NCBI GenBank assembly: GCA_964016885.1
Contig: OZ024743.1
Span: forward strand, 113,832,001-113,896,000
DNA: 64,000 nucleotides
Direction of reading: 5' to 3'
DNA from: Eledone cirrhosa
Lineage: Eukaryota
Part shown: positions 15,217 through 63,692 of the stretch, piece after piece
Numbering within the stretch: position 1 is the first letter of the stretch
Layout of the letters: each line of letters starts with the position of its first letter
The notes under the pieces: model-generated
Seen by the model: the letters and a program-made list of their open reading frames with translations, nothing else
The model's database searches: none
Told to the model about the DNA's origin: nothing
Made by a program: the position numbers and the translations under genes

Positions 15217-16019
15217 TTAAAGAAAGCAGTGGTTTGAGAAAAAAAAACAAAAAAAACAGACATTGAGAAAAGCTATATATGTATAACCCATGCTAGCGTG
15301 GAAAATAGACGTTAAACGATGATAATGATGAGGATGATGACGATATTGGACCAATGAACCAACACACATCGGGTATTATATATTAGAGATTGTGAGGAAG
15401 TGTCACTTTTCTTGGACTCAAGACCATTGCAATCCTATAGCAGGATGTAGCTATTAAATACATGCTGAACAAAGACAACAGTGAATTGCTTAAACCCCAC
15501 CAAGATGCTATTCAAAAGATTGATTATATCACATATCCGTAGAAGACTTTACATGTTATCAACAGCTGAACCAATATGTCGTGGTTGCTAAAACAATATA
15601 CAATGTCAGCCATAGGAAAGACAGGCTTGCTATAAATATGTATAAAAAATATTTCTCAGAACAAACATCATCATTATCACAATCATCGTTTATACATCCA
15701 TTTTTCTATGCTAGCATGCATTGAACAGGATGGTTGAGATAATGCTTACAGCTGGATGCCCTTCCTGACTCCAACCCTTTTAGTCACGTCTTACGTGATG
15801 CAGAGATACAGTGTATCTGTTGTAAAAATTGTGATACGCACAGCATGTTTTAATGCAAGGAATATTGGTTAAATATTCCCATTAAAACTTCTATTAAATA
15901 CTCATACAACAAGCTTGGTAGAGTTGTTTTTGAGAGAAAACAAAGACGATGTACCGTTACTGAGTTCATCTAACCAGTGGGTGTAAATGTTTCATTTAGA
16001 AATATCGATGTGTAACTAA

Positions 16020-17887: not shown

Positions 17888-17945
17888 CATTTATATATAT
17901 TTATATATATATATACACATACATGTGTGTGTGTGCGTGTGTAGC

Positions 17946-18332
17946 ATCATCATCATCATCATCAGTATTTAACGTCCATTTTTCCTCGGTGGCATGGGTT
18001 AGACAAGTTATCCTCTTGTAAGCAATGCTGTGTCAAGTGACCATACCTTGCTCATACAGAACTGATTTTGGCTTGGTTTCTACAGCTGGATGCCCTTTCT
18101 AGCACCAACCTCATTTACAGTGAGTACTGGGTGCTTTTTATCGTGATACCTACATGACCACTTTACAGTGTGGGCTGGGTGCTTTTTATCGTGATACCTA
18201 CATGACCACTTTACAGTGTGGGCTGGGTGCTTTTTGTCATGACACCTACACAACCACTTTACAGTGTGGACTGGGGGCATTTTGTCGTGACACCTACGTG
18301 ACCACTTTACAGTGTGGGCTGGGCACTTTTTT
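17946..18332 (-). mobile_element. Older V-like SINE 3' portion with about 4.5 tandem 48-bp units
   Basis: (cat)n tail, ctacagctggatgccctt, repeated tttacagtgtgggctgggtgctttttatcgtgatacctacatgaccac. Confidence 0.8.
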
Positions 18333-20000: not shown

Positions 20001-20882
20001 TCATCATCATCATCATCATCAACGTTTAACGTCCGTGTTCCACGCTTGCATGGGTTTGGACGGGGGTAGTCCCACTTGAGGCAAGAGTGATTGTCTTGCT
20101 CGCATAGGACTGTCTGGCAGGTTTTCTACAGTTGGATGCCCTTCCTAACACCAACCACATTTACAGTGTGGGTCTGGGAGGTTTTTACCGTGTTGCCTAC
20201 ACGGCCACATTACAGCGTGGACTGTGTGTTTTTTTTGTCGTGACACATACACGATCTCATTTGTTTCGGCCTCGATGGCGCGGCACCAACATAACTTTAC
20301 ATAGAACGGGGTGGTGTGGATGAGGTGGGGGTGGTGGTGGTGGGACGGGGTGTATTTTGTTAGAGATGCCTACTGGTTGGAGTAGGTTTTACTATATATT
20401 TAGGTAAGGCGGGTCTTCTCTGTTACTGAGTACCGCCAAAGGTCTCGGTCCAGTGACATTGTCTTGGAGAGGTGTAAGTGTGTGATGTCGGAGTTTATCA
20501 GCTCGTCCCATGTTTTTCTAGGTCTGCCTATTCCGTGACTACCGTCTATCTTTATTGCCCTGCACTTTGTTATACAGCTATCGACTTTCATGCGCATCAC
20601 GTGTCCATACCAACGTAGCCTTCTCTCGAGTAAACAACATCTGATCCCTCTTATCTCTAATTTTTTCCTTAGTTCGTTTATGCTTTGCCGTTCACGTATA
20701 TTACTGTTACACATCCAGCGGAGCATGCAAGCTCCGTTCCTCTCTAGTCTGCGTATATCCTCTGCACACAATGCCCAGGTCTCACTGCCATGCAGCATTG
20801 CTGTTCGTATGCAGGCATCGTACAACCTGCCTTTCATTTTTAGGGAGAACCCTTTAGCAGCTAATAGTGGTATAAGCTCTCT
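20001..20882 (-). mobile_element. RTE LINE family A, 5'-truncated (C-terminal about 160 aa plus long 3' UTR)
   Basis: RELIPLL...[12 protein letters not shown]...GRPRKTW...EKTRLT*, a few substitutions from the full copy; (cat)n tail; (TA)n at both ends. Confidence 0.96.
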
Positions 20883-21444: not shown

Positions 21445-24440
21445 GCTCTAACGAGGTTGTAGAAATGCTTGAACGTAAGGAGGTCGATGTTTGTTGTATT
21501 CAAGAGACCAGGTGGAGGGGAGGGTCGGCTAGATTCATCGTGGGTAAAGAACGATGCTATAAGCTTTTCTGGGTGGGAAATGACAATGGGTTGGGTGGGG
21601 TAGGAATCATGGTAGCAGAAAAGTGGGCAGATAAGATAATAGACGTAAATAGAGTGAACGGCAGAATAATTAAAATAAGACTTGTCCTCAATAAAACTAC
21701 GGTGACAGTAATATCTGCGTACGCACCACAATCCGGACTGCCCGGTGCTATAAAAGACAGATTCTACGAGACACTGATGCTCGCTACCTCCCAAATAACC
21801 GACAGTGACTATATAGTTATTGCAGGCGACCTAAATGGTCACGTTGGACAACATTGTGACGGCTATGACGGAATCCATGGAGGCTATGGGTTCGGTACTA
21901 GAAATAAGGAAGGCTCCAGAATCCTGGAATTCTGCGACGCAAATAACTTAACTATCTGTAACACTAACTTCAAAAAACGAGACAATCACTTGATCACCTA
22001 TAAATCGGGGGAACACACAAGCCAGGTAGATTATATCCTTACCAGAAGACGTGACAGAGTGTCTGTTGTTAACACTAAATCCCTCCCCCATGAAGAATTC
22101 ACCTCCCAACATAGACTGATAATTAGCGACCTCATAGTTAGGACGAGACGTACTAGACAGCGGAAGAGGACTATCCTCAGGAGAAAAATATGGAAGCTAA
22201 AGGACCCCATAGCCAGAAATAAATTTCAAAGCATATTACTTGACGCTTTCGACAGTAAGGAAGAGCAATTAGAGTCGTATAATATAGAGAAACAGTGGGA
22301 ATTCCTGAGAGCAAACCTGCTGACGGCGGCAGACGAAGTCTGTGGCTGGAGCAGGCCTGTAGGTAGGAGGAGAGTAACATGGTGGTGGAACAGTAAGGTG
22401 GAGGAGTCAATTAAGGCCAAAAAGCAGACTTGGAAAGCATGGCGGGATGGGGGAAGTAGAGAAGACTATCAAGTGGCCAGGAGGGAAGCTAGGAGACAAG
22501 TGTACTTCGCAAGAAGGGAAGCAGAGGAAAGAAAGTTCAAGCATGTTCTACAACGTGAGGACCAAAAACGTGAGGTGTTCAGGATTGCCAGGCAATGTGT
22601 CAAGGAAAACCGTGATATTGTCGGGGAGAAGTGTGTACTTAACGATGATGGCATACTTGCCATCACCGATGCTGATAAGAAGGTAGCTTGGAAGTGTCAC
22701 TACGAAAGGCTTCTAAATGAGGAGAACAAATGGGAGAAAGACAGTCTCCCCCACATCGACCCAATAGAGGGACCAGCAGTGATAGTCCAGGGTAGTACAA
22801 TAAGCAAGGCAATCAAAGATATGAAGACGGGTAAGGCGGCTGGTCCTTCGGAAATAGTTGCTGAGATGCTGAAGGCATCTGGTTCGGTGGGACACACCAT
22901 GGTCACCCGGATAGTTAACCAAGTCGTACAGAATGGGGTTGTTCCGAAGGACTGGCGTAGCAGCATCATCGTTAAGTGCTATAAGGGAAAAGGAGATGCC
23001 CTAGATAGGAGTAACTATAGAGGCATTAAATTAATCGACCAGGTCATGAAGGTCACGGAAAAAGTAATAGCGCAACTAATCAGAGAGAGAATTGACCTAG
23101 ATGAAATGCAGTTCGGATTTGTGTCAGGTAAAAGTACCACAGACGCTCTTTTCATTGTACGACAACTACAGGAGAAGTACCTAGCTAAAAGTAAACCCCT
23201 ATACTTAGCTTTCGTCGACTTGGAGAAAGCCTTCGACAGATTCCCCCGTTCCATTATCTGGTGGTCTCTTAGAAAACTAGGTGTTGACGAATGGCTTGTG
23301 AGAGCTATACAAGCCATGTATAAAGAAACAGTCAGTAAGGTTAGAATTAACAACGAATATAGTGAAGAGTTTAGCGTAAAAGTTGGTGTCCATCAGGGCT
23401 CTGTTCTTAGCCCCCTACTATTTATTATTGCCCTTCAGGCTATAACAGAGGAGTTCAAGACCAGCTGCCCATGGGAACTCCTATACGCAGACGATCTAAC
23501 GCTCATAGCTGAATCAATGACCGAACTAGAGAAGAAATTCCAAACATGGAAGCACGGCCTAGAATCAAAAGGCCTTAAAATTAACCTGGCTAAGACTAAA
23601 GTTCTAGTTTGTAGGAAAGAAAATAAGGCGGCAGTCCCATCTGGGAAATGGCCATGCTCAGTGTGTAGGAAAGGCGTAGGTAGAAACTCCATTTTATGTC
23701 CCAAATGCAAAGTATGGGTGCATAAAAGATGTAGTGGGATCACAGGTAAGCTAACTAAGAACATAGATTTTACATGTGGCCGGTGCTCTGGTGCAATAAG
23801 TAGCAGCAAGTGCCCACAAAATACTATCTCCTTCAACTGCGCAGAGGGTTCTATAGAAATAGTGGACAGCTTCCGTTACCTGGGTGACAAAATCAGCAGT
23901 GGGGGAGGGTGCTCTGAAAGTACAGTAGCTAGAGTCAGAACTGGATGGAAAAAGTTCAGAGAGCTTATACCACTATTAGTCGCTAGAGGGTTCTCCCTAA
24001 AAATGAAAGGCAGGTTATACGATGCCTGCATACGAACAGCAATGCTGCATGGCAGTGAGACCTGGGCATTGTGTGCAGAGGATATACGCAGACTAGAGAG
24101 GAACGAAGCTTGCATGCTCCGCTGGATGTGCAATAGTAATATACGTGAACGGCAAAGCATAAACGAACTAAGGAAAAAATTAGAAATAAGAGGGATCAGA
24201 TGTTGTTTACTCGAGAGAAGGCTACGTTGGTACGGTCACGTGATGCGCATGAAAGACGACAGCTGTATAACAAAGTGCAGGGCAATAAAGATAGACGGTA
24301 GTCACGGAATAGGCAGACCTAGAAAAACATGGGACGAGCTGATAAATTCCGACCTCACATGCTTACACCTCTCCAAGACAATGTCACTGGACCGAGACCT
24401 TTGGCGGTACTCAGTAATAGAGAAGACCCGCCTTACCTAA
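21445..24440 (+). CDS. RTE ORF: AP endonuclease, reverse transcriptase and PHD finger; N-terminus missing (the ATG at 21387 comes from the microsatellite)
   Basis: [34 protein letters not shown] (APE); [43 protein letters not shown] (RT); C4HC3 at 23655-23786; no stop for about 998 codons. Confidence 0.95.
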
Positions 24441-24941
24441 ATACAAAGTAAAAACCTACTACAGTCAGTAGGCATCTCTATCAAAACACCCCCACGTCCC
24501 ACCACCTCCACCCCATCCACACCGCCCCTTTCAATGTAAAGTTATGTTGGTCCCACAACATCCAGGCCGAAACAAATGAGATCGTGTAGGTGTCACGACA
24601 AAAAAACACACAGTCCACGCTGTAAATGTGGCCGTGTAGGCAACACGGTAAAAACCTCCCAGCCCCACACTGTAAATGTGGTTGGTGTTAGGAAGGGCAT
24701 CCAGCTGTAGAAAACCCGCCAGACAGTCCACGCTGTAATGTGGCCGTGTAGGCAACACGGTAAAAACCTCCCAGCCCCACACTGTAAATGTGGTTGGTGT
24801 TAGGAAGGGCATCCAACTGTAGAAAACCCGCCAGACAGTCCTATGCGAGCAAGACAACCACTCTTGCCTCAAGTGGGAAAACCCCCGTCCAAACCCATGC
24901 AAGCGTGGAACACGGACGCTAAACCTGATGATGATGATGAT
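21445..24941 (+). mobile_element. RTE LINE family A, nearly full length
   Basis: Single APE-RT ORF, 3' UTR of about 500 bp, (tga)n tail, flanked by (TA)n. Confidence 0.97.
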
Positions 24942-33734: not shown

Positions 33735-33966
33735 CATCACCCTCATCATCATCATCGTTTAACTATTTTCCATGCTAGCATGGGTTAAATGGGTTGTCCC
33801 GTTTGAGGCAAGTTGGGTCAGATGACCATGTCTGGCTAATATAGAACTGTTTCTGACTTGGTTACTACAGTCTGATGCCCTTCCTAATGCCAATCACATT
33901 TACAGTGTGTGCTGGATGCTTTTTGTCATGACACCTACACAACCACATTACAGTGTGGGCTGGGTA
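33735..33966 (-). mobile_element. Older V-like SINE fragment
   Basis: (cat)n tail, gatgcccttcctaatgccaa, tttacagtgtg repeats. Confidence 0.7.
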
Positions 33967-35484
33967 CTGGGGCAATGGTGTAATGGCATGGGAGAAAGGT
34001 GGTGTGATCAGATATGGGTGAGGTGTTGGGGCATGAGTAGTATATGAAAGGCTGAGGGAGGACAGTGGTTAAGAGGTGTATACTAGATGTATGCTTCAAT
34101 CTGTGTACATGGGAATGTGGATCTTCTGTGTTACTGCATAACGCCAAAGATCTTGATTGATATAAAATCTCTTATTTTACATTGTTTATATTTAAATTAA
34201 AACTTTAATTCATAGTTTTATGTAAGAACTTTTGTTATGTTCCAAACACAAGTTTAATAAAAAAAATGTCTAATTTAGGCTCGAGGCCAGAAAATGTTTG
34301 TGTGTGGGGGGTGGGGGTGTTGATTATATCAACCCAGGTACATTATTTTAAAACAAGTTTATTTGTGAGAAATTTAGGTAGGTTATTTACTAAATTTTTG
34401 GATATTTTCAAAAATATTTGAAACACATAAGTAACAAAAGGTTTCAAGAATCATGTTGTGTTTTACTTTTTAATGTTACGATAGTCAATAGTCTTCCAAT
34501 GTATTTGTTCATATGCTGTAATTCCAAAAAATAAATTTTAGCCATATGAGTAGTGCCGATTTCACAAAAGAAAGCACCCTGTCCACTCTATGAATTGGTA
34601 GTGTTGGCACCATGACATCTAGTCCACCCAGTAAGGAGGCAATGCCAGTGTCATGGCAAAAAGCTTCCACTACATGCTGTAGAAACTATGTTCCCAGAAC
34701 ACGATGTAAAGTGGTTGGCATTAGGAAGGGCATCCAACTATAGAAACCAAGCCAAAACAATGCATACCAGTAGGACCTAGTTATCTGACAGTTCTGACCT
34801 CATCAGGTGATTGCTGTCTGTGCTCATGTCCATATGTGCTTGTTTCTCTTGCGCACTCGTCTGTGTTCATGTGGCACCTTTTGCTGCAGCTGTGGCGTCG
34901 TCCCCACCACTTCCCAGTTCTATCCACCTTTATGACTTCACACCTTGTAGCTTAGCCATTTACGGTTCTACCACTGTATTGTTGTATGTGAAGCTAAGCA
35001 GCTTCTCTTACGACCATACCAGGTAATAAAATATACAGGCTACTACAATCTCCACTTTTCTACACAGCCCCTCTCGACTGCTGCTATGTGTGTTTATGTA
35101 CATATATGTAGAAATTCATATACATTGTTGTTATACACCCCCTAACGTCAGTCAGTTCATGTACACATGCACACTCATTTATCTCCAATCTCTGAGAAGC
35201 CATCCCATCACTGTTCAAGGCTTCTCCATCTAACATACAAACACACCTTCACACGCACACACACACACACACGCACAAAAACATGTACGTATGCTCACTT
35301 GTCCACCCCACATATACATTGATTACCTCCCTTCCTAAACCTCTCTAATGCGAAAGATACTTGACCAGCCACTCTTCAAGATGGCTGACTGAATACACAA
35401 GTGTGTTTTTTTCTCCCCCATTTTTTCCTCATTCCTTCCTCGTATCACTCTTTACTTTCTATTTATCTTCTATTTCTAACTCTA

Positions 35485-37795: not shown

Positions 37796-39216
37796 TTTTT
37801 CAGTTGCATAGATCATAACAGAAGTTGTAAATATATGAGAATGGCTTTTCTATTTGAACCCTGTTGGCATTCGGATCAATAAATACTTGCTCTGACTGCG
37901 GCCTGGAATATATCATTAACACATACATACCATTCCTCCATTCCTCTATTCCAGCATCAACTACTCTTGTGTTACTCTCAATAACAGATATATTGAACAT
38001 TTTATTCTGAAATAGAGTCACTTTAAGCATTCATAAACCAAGCTGGTGTTATATAAACTAAACAAATGCTGATATCATAACTAACAGACCATTGCTTTTG
38101 AATTATATTTTCAAAATCAGATCTCAACTTTTATAACCTATAAGAAATTTTATGTTGATTAAGTTTTGAGTTGTAATATTTTTACAATTGTTGATCAACA
38201 AAGCTATGATTTAGTAGGTAAGTTGAAGTCATTAATCAAGATAGACCACAGTCAAAATAAAGTACTTCCTGTCTAAGGAAGGAGCCCTCATGAGGTGGAA
38301 TGGCTAATGTAGCAAGTTCTACTGGCCTATGCAGTGAGTATTGCTGGTTGTTCACTGTGGTAAAACCTTTGCTATTTTGTTCATGAGGTGCTGTTGAGAT
38401 ATACCATCTAGACTGGGGTGTTGACATTGCCACCTCCTCCTATTGAGAAATACCCGCTAAACTGGGGTGTAGGTTGTTCTGCCACTTCCTGTTCATTTTT
38501 CCTTACTTTTCCTATTTAATTTCTTTGTTCTTTTTCTTCTTTTTCTTCTTTTTCTTCTTTTTCTTCTTTTTCTTCTTTTTCTTCTTTTTTTATTGCAAAC
38601 ATTATGTAATTTAAGTCTAAATAAATATGGTTTGAATAAGAGCAACTTTTATTTGACTTTGAAGAGCTGTCATGCTGTATGTAGTAGTTGTATCATCGGT
38701 TTAGTAGTACTTTCTAAAAATAAATAAAGCACCATTAAACCTATAGTTTTATGGTTCCCTATTTAAGGCCTGTCTAAATCAACTTCATCTGTCATCCTTA
38801 TATTGTTTTGTATGAAGTTTGTGGGTTTGCAGAGGATAGGAGAGAGGACTGATATTTCATGGCTGAGAGAGAAAAAATGTAATTTTCTCTCTCTCTGTGA
38901 TAATAGGACGTTCTTAAAATATTTGATTTCTCTTCCTTCTAAGACTACACACTTATCCAAATCATAATCAACATTGTATAATTTTTCCTGACACAGACCT
39001 TCATCAGTTTCCTCAGTAATTGTTAATTGTAATGTTAATTCTACATATCCTCATTTCACCTTTGCTGATGGTAATATGAGCCTACTGACTACCTGGGAGT
39101 GTGGTCTATCATATGGTCCATGAAGAGGGTTCTCATGTCCACTTAACATTTTATAGTAGTAACTAAATACTGATGCATAAAAATCCTTTAGAACTTTAAA
39201 AGCATATGTGGCACAT

Positions 39217-39558
39217 GGAGGCACATGGCTTAGTGGTTAGAGCATTGGCCTTGCAATCGAAAGGTTGTGAGTTCAATTCTCAGACCGGGTGATGTGTTGT
39301 TTCCTTGAGCAAGACACTTTATTTCACATTGCTCCAGTTTACTCAGCTGTAGAAATGAAATGATAGGGACTGGGGTCCCTATCATTCCACTGCAAAGTGG
39401 TCGTTGAGGTGCCACGGCAAAAAAAGCACCCAGCACTCACTGTAAAATGAGGTTGGTGTTAGGAAGGGCATCCAGCTGTAGAAATCAAGCCAGAATCAGT
39501 TCCCGTCCCACCCTTGCAAGCAGCGAAAAGCGGACATAAAATGATGATGATGATGATG
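39217..39558 (+). mobile_element. SINE family A, full length
   Basis: A box tggcttagtgg, B box gagttcaattc, (atg)n tail. Confidence 0.93.
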
Positions 39559-40098: not shown

Positions 40099-42263
40099 TG
40101 TGGTTAGAAAAAGGTACTTCACTTACCGCTTATTGCTGGCACCGGTAATCCAATGGCTGGTTTCTCCTCTCCCACGTGCGTACAATCCAACTCTTTAACC
40201 GGGAGCTCCAAAACTGACGTCCACCACTTTCGCTGACCACGCTAGAGAGAGGCAGACCTGCTGCCCTTCCGGTCGAGCACCCTTCCGGACAAGCACCCTT
40301 CCGGTCAAGCATTCTTTTGGTCGAACACTCCCCAGCCTCCGGCCACCGCACACCACACCATACCCACATGCCCCCCTGATCTCAAGGATCAATTTCCCCC
40401 TCGTCCTGCTGCATATGAAAGTCTGCTGTCCAGGTTGGTGGTTTGCGACTTCTTTGTGATCTCCGCAGTGTTGGGGCGGCACTTTGGGTTTCCTCTTCCT
40501 TGGAGTCCATTGACACAGTAATTCTATGGACATCCAGGACATGACGTGGTACTCCGTCCACGGACACATTGTTCTGGGAATTTACGGCCGTCACCGTTCC
40601 CCTTCCCCATTGAGATGTGCAACGTGCATCTGGGGGCTTAACCCAGACTTCTTCGCCCACCTGCACGAATGCATTCTCTCTCTCCACTGGCCGTTGTGGT
40701 GGCATGCACGGGTGCCGCCACTTGTATCTGAATACTACTCTGTGTGGCACCGATTCCTCAACCTGTCTCACCCGAGGAGACATGTTGTACCAGAACATTG
40801 CCTCCATTAGTGAGATGTGTCCCCGCTCCACCATTGCTTTGATCGTCCGGTGGTGTCGCTCCACGATTCCATTTCCGCTCGGCCTGTACGCTGCTCTGAA
40901 GAAACGGTCCACCTTCCATCCATCGAGCATCTCCCTCAGCGCCTCCGAGCAGAATGCTGCGCTGTTGTCCATCAGCAGTTCGTCCACAGGGCCCCGCTCC
41001 AAGAACACCTCTCTCAACGTCCATGTGATATCCTCATCCGTTCCAGTCTTCATCTCCCTCCATTACGCCATCCGACACGGTCCACAGTTGACCATTAAGA
41101 GGTATGTTCCTTGTCGGTAGTGTGTTACATCCACCGCCAATTGCTTCCAGTCGCGATCCACCGGGAGGCTTCCCGTTTCGTGCACACCCGGAGCGGGATC
41201 AATGGACTGACATAGGATGCAGCCTCTAACCACTCTTGAACACTGTGTCTGCTAACATCCGAGTCGATTCTCCTGGCTAGGAACAGAGTCCTATCCACTC
41301 CCATGTGGTGCATGTCATGCAACCCTTTCAGATCCAACTCGGTCAGCCGACACATGGCAGCTATCTCCTCTTCTACATCCTCCAGTGCTTCCATCCAGGC
41401 TTTCTTCACCCTGGTTAAAACGTCCGCCCTATTTTTCTCTGAGGGCATGAAAACTACGCTCAGCCTCAGGTCGAACTCAGTGGCCAGCTCTCCTAAAGTT
41501 CCCAGGCGGCACTTTATCAGCATCTCCGCCGCCCCTCTCATTCGCACTCTCTTCTTACTGGTGAGCACTGATCTCACCCATCCGAGTACAGTAGCCGAAT
41601 CGGTGCGAATCTCGATGGTGCGCAGTCCCCACCTCAGGGCGAGGTTCACCCCCCTCAACACCGCATCCAGTTCGGCCACATTGATGTGGTTGCAATCGTC
41701 CTCCTTCCTAAGCCAGGCTGCATCCTCGACCTCAACACCTCCTATCTCCAACGTGACACCTAGTGCTATGCTGCTGGCATCGCACCATATGGTCCCACTC
41801 TGCAATTTGGGAACATACCAGCGTCCCCGCACTGGTTTGTCAGCCTTCACCCTCTCCATGATCTCCTGCATCATGGCCACCGTCCTCTCTCCCACTCTGT
41901 CACTCCAAGTCACCCCCGTCTGCTCGTCTCTTGACATAGCTGTATGCCGTCCGGAGCCACCCAACATGCCGTCCGGACCCACCAACTTTCCACACGCCGA
42001 GAAAAGCTTGTGGTTAGAAAAAGTTACTTCACTTACCTCTTATTGCCGGCACCGGTAATCGAATGGCTGGTTTCTCCTCTCCCACGTGCGTACAATCCAA
42101 CTCTTTAACTGGGAGCTCCAAAACGGACGTCCACCACCTTCGCTGACCATGCTAGAGAGAGGCAGACCTGCTGGCCCTTCCGGTCGAGCACCCTTCCGAT
42201 CAAGCACTCTTCCGGTCGAGCACTCCCCAGCCACCGGCCACCGCACACCACACCATACCCACC
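40099..42263 (-). mobile_element. Internally deleted LTR retrotransposon (Ty3/Gypsy-like domain order)
   Basis: Direct LTRs at 40099-40368 (TG..CA) and 42009-42263 (terminal base mutated); TSD ctata at 40094-40098 and 42264-42268; purine tract agggggg next to the 3' LTR. Confidence 0.93.
40382..42008 (-). pseudogene. pol remnant: RNase H plus DDE integrase, frameshifted
   Basis: WCDASS, HINVAELDAV, RTDSATV, NRADVLTR (RNase H); LHDMHHMG (HHCC-like); LMDNSAAF and GNGIVERHHRTIK (integrase core). Confidence 0.9.
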
Positions 42264-50750: not shown

Positions 50751-51451
50751 CTCTCAGGTCTTGAATAATCGTGCCCCCCCCCCTCCCGCCTGTTAATTTT
50801 TCAGATTTTTTCCAACCTTGCCGCTTTTATTTATTCCCTCCCCCCCCCCCTGCTTTTAAAATTTTGTTAATCTATCTCCAGCAAAATTTTGTTGTAAGTT
50901 ATTCATATCGATACAGGAGCTGGAGAATTTAATAATTTTATTTTGCAATAAAAAACCCCCATTATATATGACAAAAAAAAGAACATTACAAGAAATCTCA
51001 TATTTACAAACATCATCATCATCATCATCGTTTAACGTCCATCTTCCATGCTTGCATGGGTTTGGACGGGAGTTTTCCCACTTGAGGCAAGATTGGTTGT
51101 CTTGCTCGTATAGGACTGTCTGGCGGGTTTTCTACGGCTGGATGCCCTTCCTAACACCAACCACGTTTACAGTATGGACTGGGAGGTTTTTACTGTGTTA
51201 CCTACATGGCTACATTACAGCGTGGACTGTGTGTTTTTTTGTCGTTACACCTACACGACCTCATTTATTTCGGACTGGATGTTGTGGTACCAACATAACT
51301 TTACATCGAAAGGGGTGGTGTGGATGGTGTGGGGGTGGTGGATACTATACAATTACTGATCCCCACCCCATTTATCCCCCCCACACACACTTATAAAAAT
51401 TTAATCAAATGCCCCTCCCCCCTCCACTTACCCCCCCCCCCACTCCGAGAG
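50751..51451. mobile_element. TA-flanked MITE containing a nested RTE-A 3' fragment
   Basis: TA|ctctc...gagag|TA with poly-C subterminal tracts. Confidence 0.5.
51011..51342 (-). mobile_element. RTE family A, 3' UTR-only copy
   Basis: Colinear with 20001-20340 and 56915-57250. Confidence 0.9.
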
Positions 51452-54404: not shown

Positions 54405-54518
54405 TTCTGTATAAGCAAGACATGGTCACCTGATCTAGCATTGCCCACAACAGGACAACTCGTTTAACCCATGGTAGTGTAGAAAATAGATGCAAAATGG
54501 TGATTATGATGATGATGA

Positions 54519-54855
54519 TCATCATCATCATTTCATTTTACGTCTGCTTTTCCCTGCTTGCAAGGGTGGGACGGGAACTGATTCTGACTTGATTTCTACA
54601 GCTGGATGCCCTTCCTAACACCAACCTCATTTACAGTGAGTGCTGGGTGCTTTTTTTTCCGTGGCGCCTACACGTCCACTTTGCAGATGATATGGACTGG
54701 GGTCTCTATCATCTCATTTCTACAGCTGAGTAAACTGGAGCAATGTGAAATAAAGTGTCTTGCTCAAGGAAACAACACATCACCCGGTCTGAGAATTGAA
54801 CTCACAACCTTTCGATTGCAAGGCCAATGCTCTAACCACTAAGCCATGTGCCTCC
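54519..54855 (-). mobile_element. SINE family A, full length
   Basis: Matches the family; joined tail-to-tail with an older SINE tail at 54400-54519. Confidence 0.92.
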
Positions 54856-54873
54856 TATATATATATATATATA

Positions 54874-56882
54874 TCATCATCATCATCATCATCATTTTAC
54901 GTCCGCTTTTCCCTGCTTGCAAGGGTGGGACGGGTCTTATTCAGCACAGCATCTCTCCACTCGTCACGGTCCTTCGTCATCTCCACCGTGAGCTTCAATG
55001 ATCTGAGGTCTGTTTCACCACCTCCGCCTATGTTTTTCATCGTCTACCTCTACCACGTCTTCCTTCAACTGGCATTTCCTGGCACTTCTTCACCCACCAG
55101 TCATCCTCCATGCGCATCACATGTCCATACCACCTCAGTCTCCTCTCCCGTACACTACATTCTATCCCTCTCAGACACAGTTTCTCTCTCAACACATTTA
55201 TGCTGGGTCGTTCATGCACATTTACACTGCACATCCAACGGAGCATGCTTGCCTCATTTCTCTCCAGCCGTCACATATCCTCTGCAGTTGCTGCCCATGT
55301 CTCACTACCATGCAGCATCGCGCTCCTCACACAGGCATCATACAACCGGCCTTTCGTACGCAGGGAGAAACCCTTCTTCGTCAACAGAGGAAGCAGCTCC
55401 CTAAACTTCTTCCAACCCGTCCTTATTCTAGATACTATGGCCTCAGAACACCCTCCTCCCATGCTAATCTGATCTCCTAGGTACTGGAAGCTATCCACCA
55501 CTTCTATAGCGCCCTCCTGCATTTGAAAATGTATCTATCAATGCGACTTCTACTGTCTAATTTCCCTGTACATCTACTGCATACATATTTCTCCCTACCT
55601 GTTAGTTTGCCTGCTATCCCACTACATCTCTTGTGTACCCAGGATCTGCATTGTGTGCATTTTATAGAATTTATGCCAGTTCCTTTTCTGCATATCAAAC
55701 ATGGCCATTTCCCTGACGGAATCAGAGTTTTGTCCTCTTTTCTACTCATCAACACTTTTGTCTTAGTTAGGTTCACTCTCAGTCCTCTTGCTTCCAACTG
55801 CTGTTTCCATAGCCAGAATTTATTCTCTAGCTCCTCTACTGATTCTGCTATAAGAACCAGATTGTCAGCATAGAGAAGTTCCCATGGACAGCCAGTCTTA
55901 AACTCCTCTGTTATGGCTTGGAGGACTATAATCAACAAGAGCAGGCTGAGGACCGAACCTTGATGTACTCCTACTTGTATCTGGAATTCCTCACTAAACT
56001 CCATTCCTACCCTGACTTTACTGAGAGTACCTCTGTACAAAGTTTGCACTGTCCTCACAAGCCATTCCTCAACACCTAGCTTCCTTAGGGACCACCAGAT
56101 GACAGATCGGGGTACCCTATCAAAGGCCTTCTCTAGGTCAACAAAGGCTAAGTATAGTGGCTTATTTTTCTCTAAGAACCTCTCTTGCAATTGTCTCACC
56201 AAGAAGAGGGCATCTGTTGTACTCTTCCCAGGCACAAAACCAAACTGCATCTCATCTAGTTTGACCCTTTCTCTAATTAGTTGTGCTAATATCCTTTCTG
56301 CCACTTTCATAACCTAATCCATCAGTTTTATACCCCTATAATTGCTCCTCTCCAGAGCATCTCCTTTACCTTTGTAGCAATTTATGAGAATACTGCTGCA
56401 CCAGTCTTTGGGTATGACACCACCATATATAGCCTGATTGATGATGCATGCAACCAGTTTAGTGCATACGTCCCCTGATGCCTTCAGCATCTCAGCAACT
56501 ATTCCCGATGGTTCAACAGCTTTACCATTTTTCATTTCCCTAATCGCCTCTTGGACCCTATATTCGTCAATCTCAATAGCTGGTCCCTCTGTCGGATCTA
56601 CTAAGGGTAATTTCTCTCTCTCCCATTCTTTCTCCACATTCATCAGTCTCTCATAATGACATTTCCAGGCCTCCTTTTTCTGATCATTCATGACACTAAG
56701 TACACCGGCATCATTCCGGACACATTTATCTCCAACAACAACCTGATTTGCATTGACACACTGCCTTGCAATGTGGAACACCGCATGCCTCTGATCTTCC
56801 CGTCGCAGAACATTGGCAAACCTCCTACTCTCCGCCTCCCTGCATGCTAAGTACACCTGACGTCTAGCTTCTCTCTTAGTGG
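54874..56882 (-). mobile_element. RTE LINE family B, 5'-truncated, inactive (RT plus PHD finger)
   Basis: [24 protein letters not shown] (catalytic D lost), C4HC3 finger, [12 protein letters not shown]; internal stops and frameshifts; ORF ends KTRPTLASREKRT* directly before (atg)n. Confidence 0.95.
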
Positions 56883-56914
<32 letters not shown>

Positions 56915-56916
<2 letters not shown>

Positions 56917-57682
56917 CATCATCATCATCATCAACGTTTAACGTCCATGTTCCACGCTTGCATGGGTTTGGACGGGGGTTTTCCCACTTGAGGCAAGAGT
57001 GATTGTCTTGCTCGCATAGGACTGTCTGGCGAGTTTTCTGCAGCTGGATGCCCTTCCTAACACCAACCACATTTACAGTGTGGGGCTGGGAGGTTTTTAC
57101 CGTGTTGCCTACACGGCCACATTACAGCGTGGACTGTGTGTTTTTTTGTCGTGACACCTACACGATCTCATTTGTTTCGGCCTGGATGTTGTGGCACCAA
57201 CATAACTTTACATTGAAAGGGGCGGTGTGGATGGGGTGGGGGTGGTGGGATGGGGTGTATTTTGTTAGAGATGCCTACTGACTGTAGTAGGTTTTACTTT
57301 GTATTTAGGTAAGGCGGGTCTTCTCTATTACTGAGTACCGCCAAAGGTCTCGGTCCAGTGACATTGTCTTGGAGAGGTGTAAGTGTGTGAGGTCGGAATT
57401 TATCAGCTCGTCCCAGGTTTTTCTGGGTCTGCCTACTCCGTGGCTACCGTCTATCTTTATTGCCCTGCAATTTGTTATACAGCTATCGTCTTTCATGCGC
57501 ATCACATGACCATACCAACGTAGCCTTCTCTCGAGTAAACAACATCTGATCCCTCTTATTTCTAATTTTTTCCTTAGTTCGTTTATGCTTTGCCGTTCAC
57601 GTATATTACTATTACACATCCAGCGGAGCATACAAACTTCGTTCCTCTCTAGTCTGCATATATCCTCTGCACACAATGCCCA
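56915..57682 (-). mobile_element. RTE LINE family A, 5'-truncated
   Basis: CAEDICRLERNE...EKTRLT* plus the same long 3' UTR. Confidence 0.96.
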
Positions 57683-62689: not shown

Positions 62690-63692
62690 TACCTAAGTGA
62701 TCTAAATAGCAGTGGAAGAGTGTTCTCTGAGAGCATAGTAGCTAGAATAAGAACAGGATGGAAAAACTTCAAAGAGCTATTTATAACCTCTGTTGACAAC
62801 AAAAGCTTTCTATGAACAAAACATTGGCTGTATGATTCCTGTGTGTGATTTGCAATGTTGCATAGAAGTGAGACATGGTCAGTGAATGCAGAGGATATGA
62901 AATGGCTGGAAATAAATAAAGTGAACATGCTCCATTTGATGTACCATGTTGATATGTGTGAATGGCAGAGCATGAATGAACAGAGAGAGAAACTGGGTAT
63001 AAGTGGAATCAGATTTAGTGTGCAAAAAAGAAGACTACACTGGTATGGATATGTGATCATCATCATCATTTTATGACCGCTTTTCCCTGCTTGCAAGGGT
63101 GGGATGGGAACTGATTCTGGCTTGATTTCTACAACTGGATGCCCTTCCTAACACCAACCTCCTTTACAGTGAGTGCTGGGTGCTTTTTTTCCCGTGGTAC
63201 CTACACGTCCACTTTACAGTGTGGGCTGGGTGCTCTTTTGCCGTGGTACCTCCACGACCACTTTGCAGTGGAATGATAGGAACTCCAGTCCTATCATCTC
63301 ATTTCTACAGCTGAATAAAAGTGGAGCAATGTGAAATAAAGTGTCTTGCTCAAGGAAACAACTCAAGGAAACAACACATCACCTGGTCTGAGAATTGAAC
63401 TCACAACCTTTCGATTGCAAGGCCAATGCTCTAACCACTAAACCATGTGTCTCCATGTGATGTGTATGGAAAATGATTATTGGGTGATGAAGTGCCTAGA
63501 AATCTTAGTGAAAGAATGCTGGAGTAGAGGAAGACCTGGATTGTGGTGTTGAGAGCTGATCTCAAATCACTGAAGCTCACAGTTTAGATTACAATGGACT
63601 GTAATGAGTACAGGGAGTCTGTGTTGGAAAAGATCTGTCCAACCCATGCAAGAATGGAAAGACAGACATAAAGCAATGAAGATGATGATGAT
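62690..63692 (+). pseudogene. Decayed RTE 3' fragment interrupted by a SINE A
   Basis: RIRTGWKNFKEL, MLHRSETW, KRRLHWYGYV before the SINE; continues at 63455. Confidence 0.85.
63058..63454 (-). mobile_element. SINE family A nested in an RTE, 7-bp TSD
   Basis: atgtgat at 63051-63057 and 63455-63461. Confidence 0.92.

What the first reader, a model, noticed from the sequence alone, without database searches (positions are those of the whole stretch)
24420..24941. RTE LINE family that appears to have adopted a SINE as its 3' end
Seen: in RTE family B the ORF runs into the tail (aagacccgtccc...cggacgtaa-aatgatg). In family A the ORF stops at the equivalent point (aagacccgccttacctaa) and is followed by about 500 bp. 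That stretch holds a block of about 85 bp homologous to the body of SINE family A (including ggttggtgttaggaagggcatccagc) and then a separate RTE-type tail. The same UTR occurs in four copies (20001, 24440, 51011, 56915), three still joined to the ORF, so it moves as a unit. Established: SINEs usually borrow tails from LINEs; the conserved block resembles the V-SINE domain as I recall it. Inference: the flow here was reversed (a LINE captured a SINE 3' half as its RT-recognition end), or this LINE is a donor of the domain.
Basis: partly seen in the sequence, partly recalled or inferred. Interest (0 to 1): 0.72.

Follow-up and report, generated by a model that had tools for sequence, protein, structure and literature searches.

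The report
Retrotransposon front module moved to tail
This jumping gene carries in its tail a short, likely folded RNA module that its relatives keep in front of the gene; the module was likely moved there once in an ancestor and later passed on to a short parasitic element, not taken from it as first proposed.

Summary
Observation real; SINE-capture and V-domain readings not supported. All 30 family A loci picked by ORF alone carry the same long 3' UTR. The block is an RTE 5'-UTR element: it lies before the ORF in family B (6 of 6 copies reaching that far) and in 28 of 33 full-length metagenome relatives, and between ORF and tail in 0 of 55. Families A, A', D and decayed F' carry it in the 3' UTR, form one clade (UFBoot 95), keep a remnant of the old tail at the stop, and A lacks it in front. 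SINE A is a CORE-SINE whose block is 94-96% like family D but 82-88% like A; a SINE with D's whole 3' end exists, so the flow was likely LINE to SINE, then a tail swap to B. No SINE head or CORE remains in the UTR; an extinct SINE donor for the first move is not excluded. Earlier scan notes report the same module in this and another genome. New variant of bipartite RTE elements; moderate interest.

The parts
21445..24440 (+). RTE family A ORF (endonuclease, RT, PHD finger), 5'-truncated copy, open to the stop
24423..24437 (+). Remnant of the ancestral RTE tail at the ORF end (codons KTRLT; family B reads KTRPTLASREKRT into its tail)
24441..24530 (+). C-rich linker; no match to SINE head or CORE
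24531..24606 (+). Degenerate copies of the 48-bp unit; 24582-24610 is a predicted H-type pseudoknot homologous to the unit in RTE 5' UTRs
24607..24719 (+). Block, first copy of a 113-bp tandem duplication (unit plus conserved GGAAGGGCATCC stem-loop at 24680-24710)
24720..24832 (+). Block, second copy (stem-loop at 24792-24822); homologous to the 5'-UTR element of families B, B', H and of metagenome RTEs
24836..24883 (+). Spacer shared with families D, E, F' and the older SINE form; absent from B-tailed SINE A
24884..24941 (+). Present RTE-type tail and (GAT)n
20002..20882 (-). Family A copy, ORF end plus one-block UTR
51011..51341 (-). Family A-type copy truncated inside the UTR
56915..57682 (-). 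Family A copy, ORF end plus one-block UTR
54873..56875 (-). RTE family B, 5'-truncated, ORF running into a short tail identical to SINE A's; full-length B copies elsewhere carry the block in the 5' UTR
33736..34150 (-). Older long-UTR RTE (family E): ORF end, linker, units, block, spacer, tail
17903..18332 (-). Truncated long-UTR element with several 48-bp units, block, spacer and tail
39215..39558 (+). SINE A example (tRNA-like head, CORE, D-type block, B tail); seven more copies at about 11.3k, 19.2k, 27.3k, 30.9k, 54.0k, 54.5k and 63.1k

Best explanation
The block in this LINE's 3' UTR matches a conserved element that related RTE LINEs carry in their 5' UTR, and it was likely moved behind the ORF once, in the ancestor of families A, A', D, E and F', as a ready-made '5' piece + spacer + tail' unit. 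Shown: position 5' in B, B', H and distant relatives, position 3' in one clade, tail remnant at the stop, absence from A's own 5' UTR. Inferred: the unit was a bipartite (internally deleted) RTE derivative that landed head-to-tail behind an autonomous copy or was joined by a template switch; reverse transcription then started at the second tail and the first tail decayed; the 48-bp part multiplied by slippage; the 5' UTR was replaced by unrelated sequence. A CORE-SINE then likely took family D's 3' end in the ordinary direction and later swapped to family B's tail at a shared CCCGT, giving SINE A. The module is predicted to fold (pseudoknot plus capped stem-loop) and likely acts at the RNA level as a binding site for the element's own protein, which would explain why it works at either end; this function is untested.
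For: 5' position: 6 of 6 family B loci that reach the 5' UTR, of 30 fetched; families B' and H; 28 of 33 metagenome RTEs with at least 300 nt of 5' flank, sense strand, 165-342 nt before the endonuclease start (one with a second hit further up), controls 0 of 33 reverse strand and 2 of 33 inside the ORF; 0 of 55 between ORF and own tail (the one 3' hit, L237, lies after that element's tail). Short tail is ancestral: metagenome 3' ends and outgroup proteins ending RPTHAS-like (e.g. P0003, P0004, P0009). One clade of 3'-block families: FastTree 0.998 (A, A', D; full ORF) and 0.982 (with F'; C-terminal part), IQ-TREE UFBoot 95 read from the raw tree. Tail remnant longest in old F' (L381), shorter in D, shortest in A. 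Motif absent from 18 family A upstream stretches (14 read over 700 nt, 4 of the same loci over 4.5 kb) and 1 family D stretch. SINE direction: SINE A block 94-96% to D, 82-88% to A; SINE with head, CORE and D's block, spacer and tail in 12 of the first 30 of 2,695 pattern matches, D linker in 15, 3 truncated; SINEs and D one clade, UFBoot 99. Structure: stem-loop covaries over 27 sequences (0 of 500 shuffles reach the score); pseudoknot stem 1 has changes on both sides in 4 of 5 pairs. Bipartite RTE derivatives and RTE-5'-derived SINE bodies are established (PMC5786205, PMC7245038).
Against: The immediate donor was not found as a family: L325 (H-type 5' UTR, array, block, spacer, tail, no ORF) is a single copy and may be a later recombinant. 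The 3' module is only about 60% identical to present B/H 5' UTRs, so the event is old and its route is blurred. F' rows in the tree are decayed fragments; E has too little ORF to place. Only one family D copy reached its 5' UTR. The stem-loop structure was taken from RNAalifold on the same alignment and the pseudoknot rows were picked by a pattern that demands stem 2, so both tests are partly circular; my first structure guess was not supported. No functional data.
Confidence: 0.68

Rival explanations
1. The ancestor of A/D/E/F' captured the 3' half of a now extinct or unsampled RTE-type SINE (head lost), so the first reader's direction holds for the original event though not for SINE A.
For: The 3' unit has the layout of a bipartite SINE's 3' half (PMC5786205); SINEs sit head-to-tail behind RTE tails in this window (54503-54925); a further small element with a different upstream part, the motif and an RTE tail exists (15.7k).
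Against: No head or CORE remnant in A's UTR (score 24, shuffle level). Of 71 CORE copies in 1.58 Mb of held, non-random loci, the 47 followed directly by the block all have the young D-type block; none of 20 fetched old arrays showed a SINE head joined upstream (read by eye); several lead instead to a long C-rich LINE UTR and an ORF end.
Confidence: 0.17
2. Self-duplication: a head-to-tail dimer of one autonomous RTE lost the second ORF, with no independent non-autonomous family involved.
For: One-off internally deleted copies (L357, L362) and a 5'-UTR piece sitting directly behind an element's tail (L237) show the raw material; tail-like repeats recur in the F' linker.
Against: Cannot be told from capture of a bipartite family with the present data; needs two rare steps in one locus. 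It differs from the best explanation only in route.
Confidence: 0.1
3. Family A took its UTR from SINE A and the block is the V domain.
For: SINE A and A's UTR share about 110 bp at 82-88%.
Against: SINE A lacks the spacer that A, D, E and F' share and has B's tail; it is closer to D; the UTR is older than SINE A; V core motif has 0 matches in the window at up to 3 mismatches.
Confidence: 0.03

Closest known systems
Bipartite non-autonomous RTE LINEs and RTE-5'-derived SINE bodies (Kojima 2018, PMC5786205; Kojima 2020, PMC7245038)
   Same: A piece from inside the RTE 5' UTR joined to an RTE tail; SINE A has the WALLSI2/SINE2-2_ACar layout (tRNA head, CORE, RTE 5' piece, RTE tail); tail exchange.
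   Different: There the bipartite unit is the 3' part of a non-autonomous element; here it is the 3' UTR of an autonomous, ORF-bearing lineage, and the SINE got the 5'-derived piece second-hand from a LINE 3' UTR. The motif's letters were not found in the Kojima 2018 supplement.
CORE-SINEs (octopus OR1/OR2 named as CORE-SINEs in PMC4824008 and PMC4758252; BivaCORE-SINE2)
   Same: SINE A's first body matches the BivaCORE-SINE2 CORE printed in the supplement.
   Different: The block shared with the LINE lies downstream of CORE and is not part of it. OR1/OR2 sequences were not seen, so identity with them is untested.
V-SINE domain (Ogiwara 2002; bivalve V-SINEs in PMC4824008)
   Same: Both are conserved middle parts of SINEs.
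   Different: The V core seen in BivaV-SINE1/2 is absent from the window.
Ceph domain 3' half (RTE 5'-UTR domain, PMC5786205)
   Same: Also an RTE 5'-UTR domain reused in cephalopod SINEs; a similar stretch lies upstream of the block in family H 5' UTRs (by eye).
   Different: A different segment of the 5' UTR; not present in family A's 3' UTR.
Twister ribozymes in RTE 5' UTRs (Schistosoma Perere-3, PMC8501958; search listing and abstract start only)
   Same: In three metagenome relatives a twister-P1 match (below the gathering score) ends just before the block.
   Different: The block itself matched no Rfam family in the loci scanned, and no ribozyme match was found in the family B locus L163.

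Membership tests
RTE-clade LINE (family A) | Single ORF with AP endonuclease and RT | tested here: met
   PF03372/PF14529 and PF00078 above cut-off, plus PHD; no second ORF seen upstream
RTE-clade LINE (family A) | Short stem-type tail ending in a microsatellite | tested here: met
   24884-24941; same tail type in metagenome relatives
RTE-clade LINE (family A) | RT phylogeny with named RTE references | not tested
V-SINE domain (block) | V core sequence | tested here: not met
   0 matches, 3 mismatches allowed; motif taken from bivalve V-SINE alignments; the vertebrate V paper was not held
Ceph domain (block) | CORE-like 5' half plus RTE 5' domain of SepiaSINE/OegopSINE | tested here: not met
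   Block letters absent from the Kojima supplement
RTE 5'-UTR element (block) | Sense-strand position before the ORF across the clade | tested here: met
   28 of 33 relatives; 6 of 6 family B copies
CORE-SINE (SINE A) | CORE domain after the head | tested here: met
   Matches BivaCORE-SINE2 by eye
CORE-SINE (SINE A) | tRNA-derived head with A and B boxes | tested here: inconclusive
   Box-like motifs visible; ARAGORN calls no tRNA in the window
Bipartite RTE SINE (SINE A) | RTE 5'-UTR piece plus tail of a partner RTE | tested here: met
   Tail equals family B's; block homologous to B's 5' UTR at about 64% but taken via D's 3' UTR
Captured SINE 3' half (family A UTR) | Remnant of SINE head or CORE at the junction, or a SINE basal to the LINE UTRs | tested here: not met
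   the sample is not genome-wide
Self-cleaving ribozyme (block) | Match to a ribozyme model and cleavage | tested here: inconclusive
   No Rfam match over the block in 24 loci; cleavage cannot be tested here

The most novel reading that the evidence does not exclude
An autonomous LINE lineage turned its cis-elements round: the RNA handle that RTE elements across eukaryotes keep in the 5' UTR was moved to the 3' UTR, which freed the 5' end for wholesale promoter replacement and made the 3' end a self-contained mobilisation cassette that SINEs and satellites then inherited. It would show that the enigmatic RTE 5' piece kept in bipartite SINEs is a position-independent protein-binding signal.
Probability: 0.35. 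Interest if true: 0.65.

Novelty: new variant of a known kind. Interest (0 to 1): 0.4.

Why it matters
Why so many RTE-driven SINEs keep a piece of the LINE's 5' UTR is an open question (PMC5786205 speculates about function). Here sister LINE families in one genome carry the same module at opposite ends, with thousands of young copies, a natural pair for testing whether it is a promoter, a translation element or a protein-binding handle. It also warns that a SINE body resembling a LINE UTR does not by itself give the direction of transfer. It is not evidence of a LINE capturing a SINE.

Tried and rejected
V-domain and Ceph-domain identity. A long simple hairpin for the motif: 61-143 of 500 shuffles reached it, rejected. 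L237 as an independent 3' relocation: the motif lies after its own tail. L325 as a donor family: no second copy with array among 30 loci (output partly cut). Old arrays as SINEs: no head found. L392 dropped from the tree (its ORF belongs to another element) and L388 cut to residues 817-996; the first tree run timed out. Support values printed after re-rooting are shifted; values quoted come from the raw trees. Expression: no RNA holder listed; one 151-nt contig of a run only guessed to be RNA spans the stop, not used. Literature: searches (motif letters with SINE) returned 0 papers; others gave the papers cited; none seen describes this relocation. Repbase and Dfam are not available, most subscription papers and the V-SINE paper are not held, and file 1 of the PMC4824008 supplement was not searchable, so 'already catalogued' cannot be excluded. 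Papers seen: PMC5786205 parts 1-4 of 5 and supplement passages; PMC4824008 passages and supplement file 2 parts 2-3; PMC4758252 passages and part 1 of section 11; PMC7245038 and PMC9115989 passages; PMC13282606 part 1 of 3; PMC8501958 listing only.

Full report
Observation. The element at 21445-24941 is a 5'-truncated RTE-type LINE with an open ORF (endonuclease, RT, PHD). Its ORF stops at 24440 and is followed by about 485 nt before (GAT)n. Three more copies of the UTR lie in the window, two joined to ORF. The focal copy has a 113-bp tandem duplication of the block; the others have one block and about 375 nt. Thirty loci chosen by ORF sequence only (the best 30 of 40 scored, so biased to close copies, and including the window copy) all have the same stop context and UTR, with one (7), two (22) or three (1) blocks detected. 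Genome-wide, 6,863 of 7,882 exact ORF-end matches continue exactly into the UTR start. Among held copies at least 90% identical in the C-terminal protein, 31 of 34 carry the block; of the other three, two begin the UTR and are interrupted and one runs off its locus. The UTR is a fixed family trait. Contigs from four runs labelled as four other organisms bridge the stop codon; labels are coded and mixed samples cannot be excluded, so this is only a hint that the junction is shared between species.

What the block is. It is not the V domain: the V core printed for bivalve V-SINEs has no match in the window. SINE A's conserved first body is CORE, and the shared block lies downstream of it. Following Kojima's finding that SINE middles often derive from RTE 5' UTRs (PMC5786205), I fetched family B copies: all 6 of 30 that reach the 5' UTR carry the block about 60 nt before the first ATG. 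So do family B' (L166) and an older family H. In 80 metagenome contigs of the same PHD-bearing clade, the core motif occurs in the 5' UTR of 28 of the 33 with at least 300 nt of flank, always sense, against 0 of 33 on the reverse strand and 2 of 33 in ORF stretches of equal length; it occurs between ORF and own tail in 0 of 55. In three relatives it directly follows a sub-threshold twister-P1 match. The block is therefore an old, clade-wide RTE 5'-UTR element.

Which state is derived. Distant relatives and family B end in a short tail into which the ORF often runs. Families A, A', D (73-76% protein identity to A), E and old decayed F' have ORF, tail remnant, C-rich linker, 48-bp units, block, spacer and a second tail. 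The remnant of the first tail is longest in F' (L381), shorter in D and shortest in A. On ORF trees the 3'-block families form one clade, sister to B, B', C and H: FastTree 0.998 and 0.982, UFBoot 95 (raw trees; F' rows are fragments, E is not placed). Family A's 5' UTR is unrelated, built of tandem monomers, and lacks the motif; so does the single D 5' UTR seen. The simplest history is one move from 5' to 3' in the common ancestor, followed by loss in front.

Direction with respect to SINE A. SINE A's block is 94-96% identical to D's and 82-88% to A's, and its homology to D starts sharply at the first unit and ends at CCCGT, where SINE A continues into B's tail and D into the spacer. The expected intermediate exists: a SINE with the same head and CORE followed by D's block, spacer and tail, 94-95% identical to D over about 235 nt and 72-77% to A. 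Of the first 30 of 2,695 matches to a junction pattern, 12 have the SINE head, 15 the D linker (one reassigned by eye) and 3 are truncated. On a tree of the module, both SINE forms nest with D (UFBoot 99) inside the diversity of LINE UTRs. This is the ordinary pattern of a SINE sharing its partner's 3' end, then swapping tails. Nothing of a SINE head or CORE remains in A's UTR.

How it likely works. Shown: positions, clade structure, identities. Predicted: a stem-loop capped by GGA/UCC pairs, with a covarying lower stem over 27 sequences (structure from RNAalifold on the same alignment), preceded by an H-type pseudoknot whose first stem covaries in 10 sequences (rows picked by a pattern requiring the second stem). 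The pseudoknot idea came from an earlier scan note (e1-10340845). Inferred: a bipartite RTE unit placed behind an autonomous copy supplied a second tail, which became the start of reverse transcription; the module is kept because it acts as RNA, likely as a handle for the ORF protein. Whether the first donor was a bipartite LINE derivative, a SINE's 3' half or a dimer of the element itself is not settled; L325 shows a 5' UTR-array-block-spacer-tail arrangement without ORF, but in one copy only.

Novelty. Bipartite RTE units and RTE-derived SINE bodies are well described (PMC5786205, PMC7245038). My searches (limits under Tried and rejected) found no paper on an autonomous lineage carrying the 5' element in its 3' UTR. 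Earlier notes of this scan describe the same module in this genome and in another; they are unchecked and are not counted as support. Verdict: real feature, new variant of a known kind, reversed-flow claim not supported for SINE A; interest 0.4.

Noticed in passing
G000 loci L320-L339; window 17903-18332: The 48-bp unit expands into arrays of 5 to about 70 copies that often still end in block, spacer and tail; earlier scan notes treat this as satellite seeding.
   Followed up: partly
L167-L170 (family A 5' ends): Family A's 5' UTR consists of tandem monomers several hundred bases long, repeated over more than 4 kb in L169, unrelated to B's or D's 5' UTR.
   Followed up: partly
SINE A, e.g. window 39215-39558: A perfect short inverted repeat marks the junction between CORE and block, and a 13-14-nt direct repeat is shared by the CORE end and the block end; L400 is deleted between the two.
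   Followed up: no
L245:181-258, L227:79-156, L240:42-119, L237:47-135: Twister-P1 matches below the gathering score in RTE 5' UTRs; other relatives have different structured elements in the same slot before the motif.
   Followed up: partly
window 15666-15800 (-); L200:3496 (-): Another small element with the motif, a different upstream part and an RTE tail, possibly a second bipartite SINE.
   Followed up: no
L341-L369: Old RTE family H with tandem 5'-UTR monomers resembling the Ceph 3' half, then the block, then the ORF; a few internally deleted copies.
   Followed up: partly
window 40382-42039 (-): Fragments of an LTR-retrotransposon-like pol (RNase H-like RVT_3 hit, weak integrase hit).
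   Followed up: partly
window 2536-4582 (-): Broken ORFs that read like a Helitron helicase (recalled resemblance; no Pfam hit).
   Followed up: partly
window 63056-63459: SINE A copy with two units inserted inside an older short-tailed RTE copy (62.7-63.7k); most copies sit in (TA)n or behind (GAT)n tails.
   Followed up: no
held loci: At least four other CORE-SINE types with different 3' parts occur in this genome.
   Followed up: no
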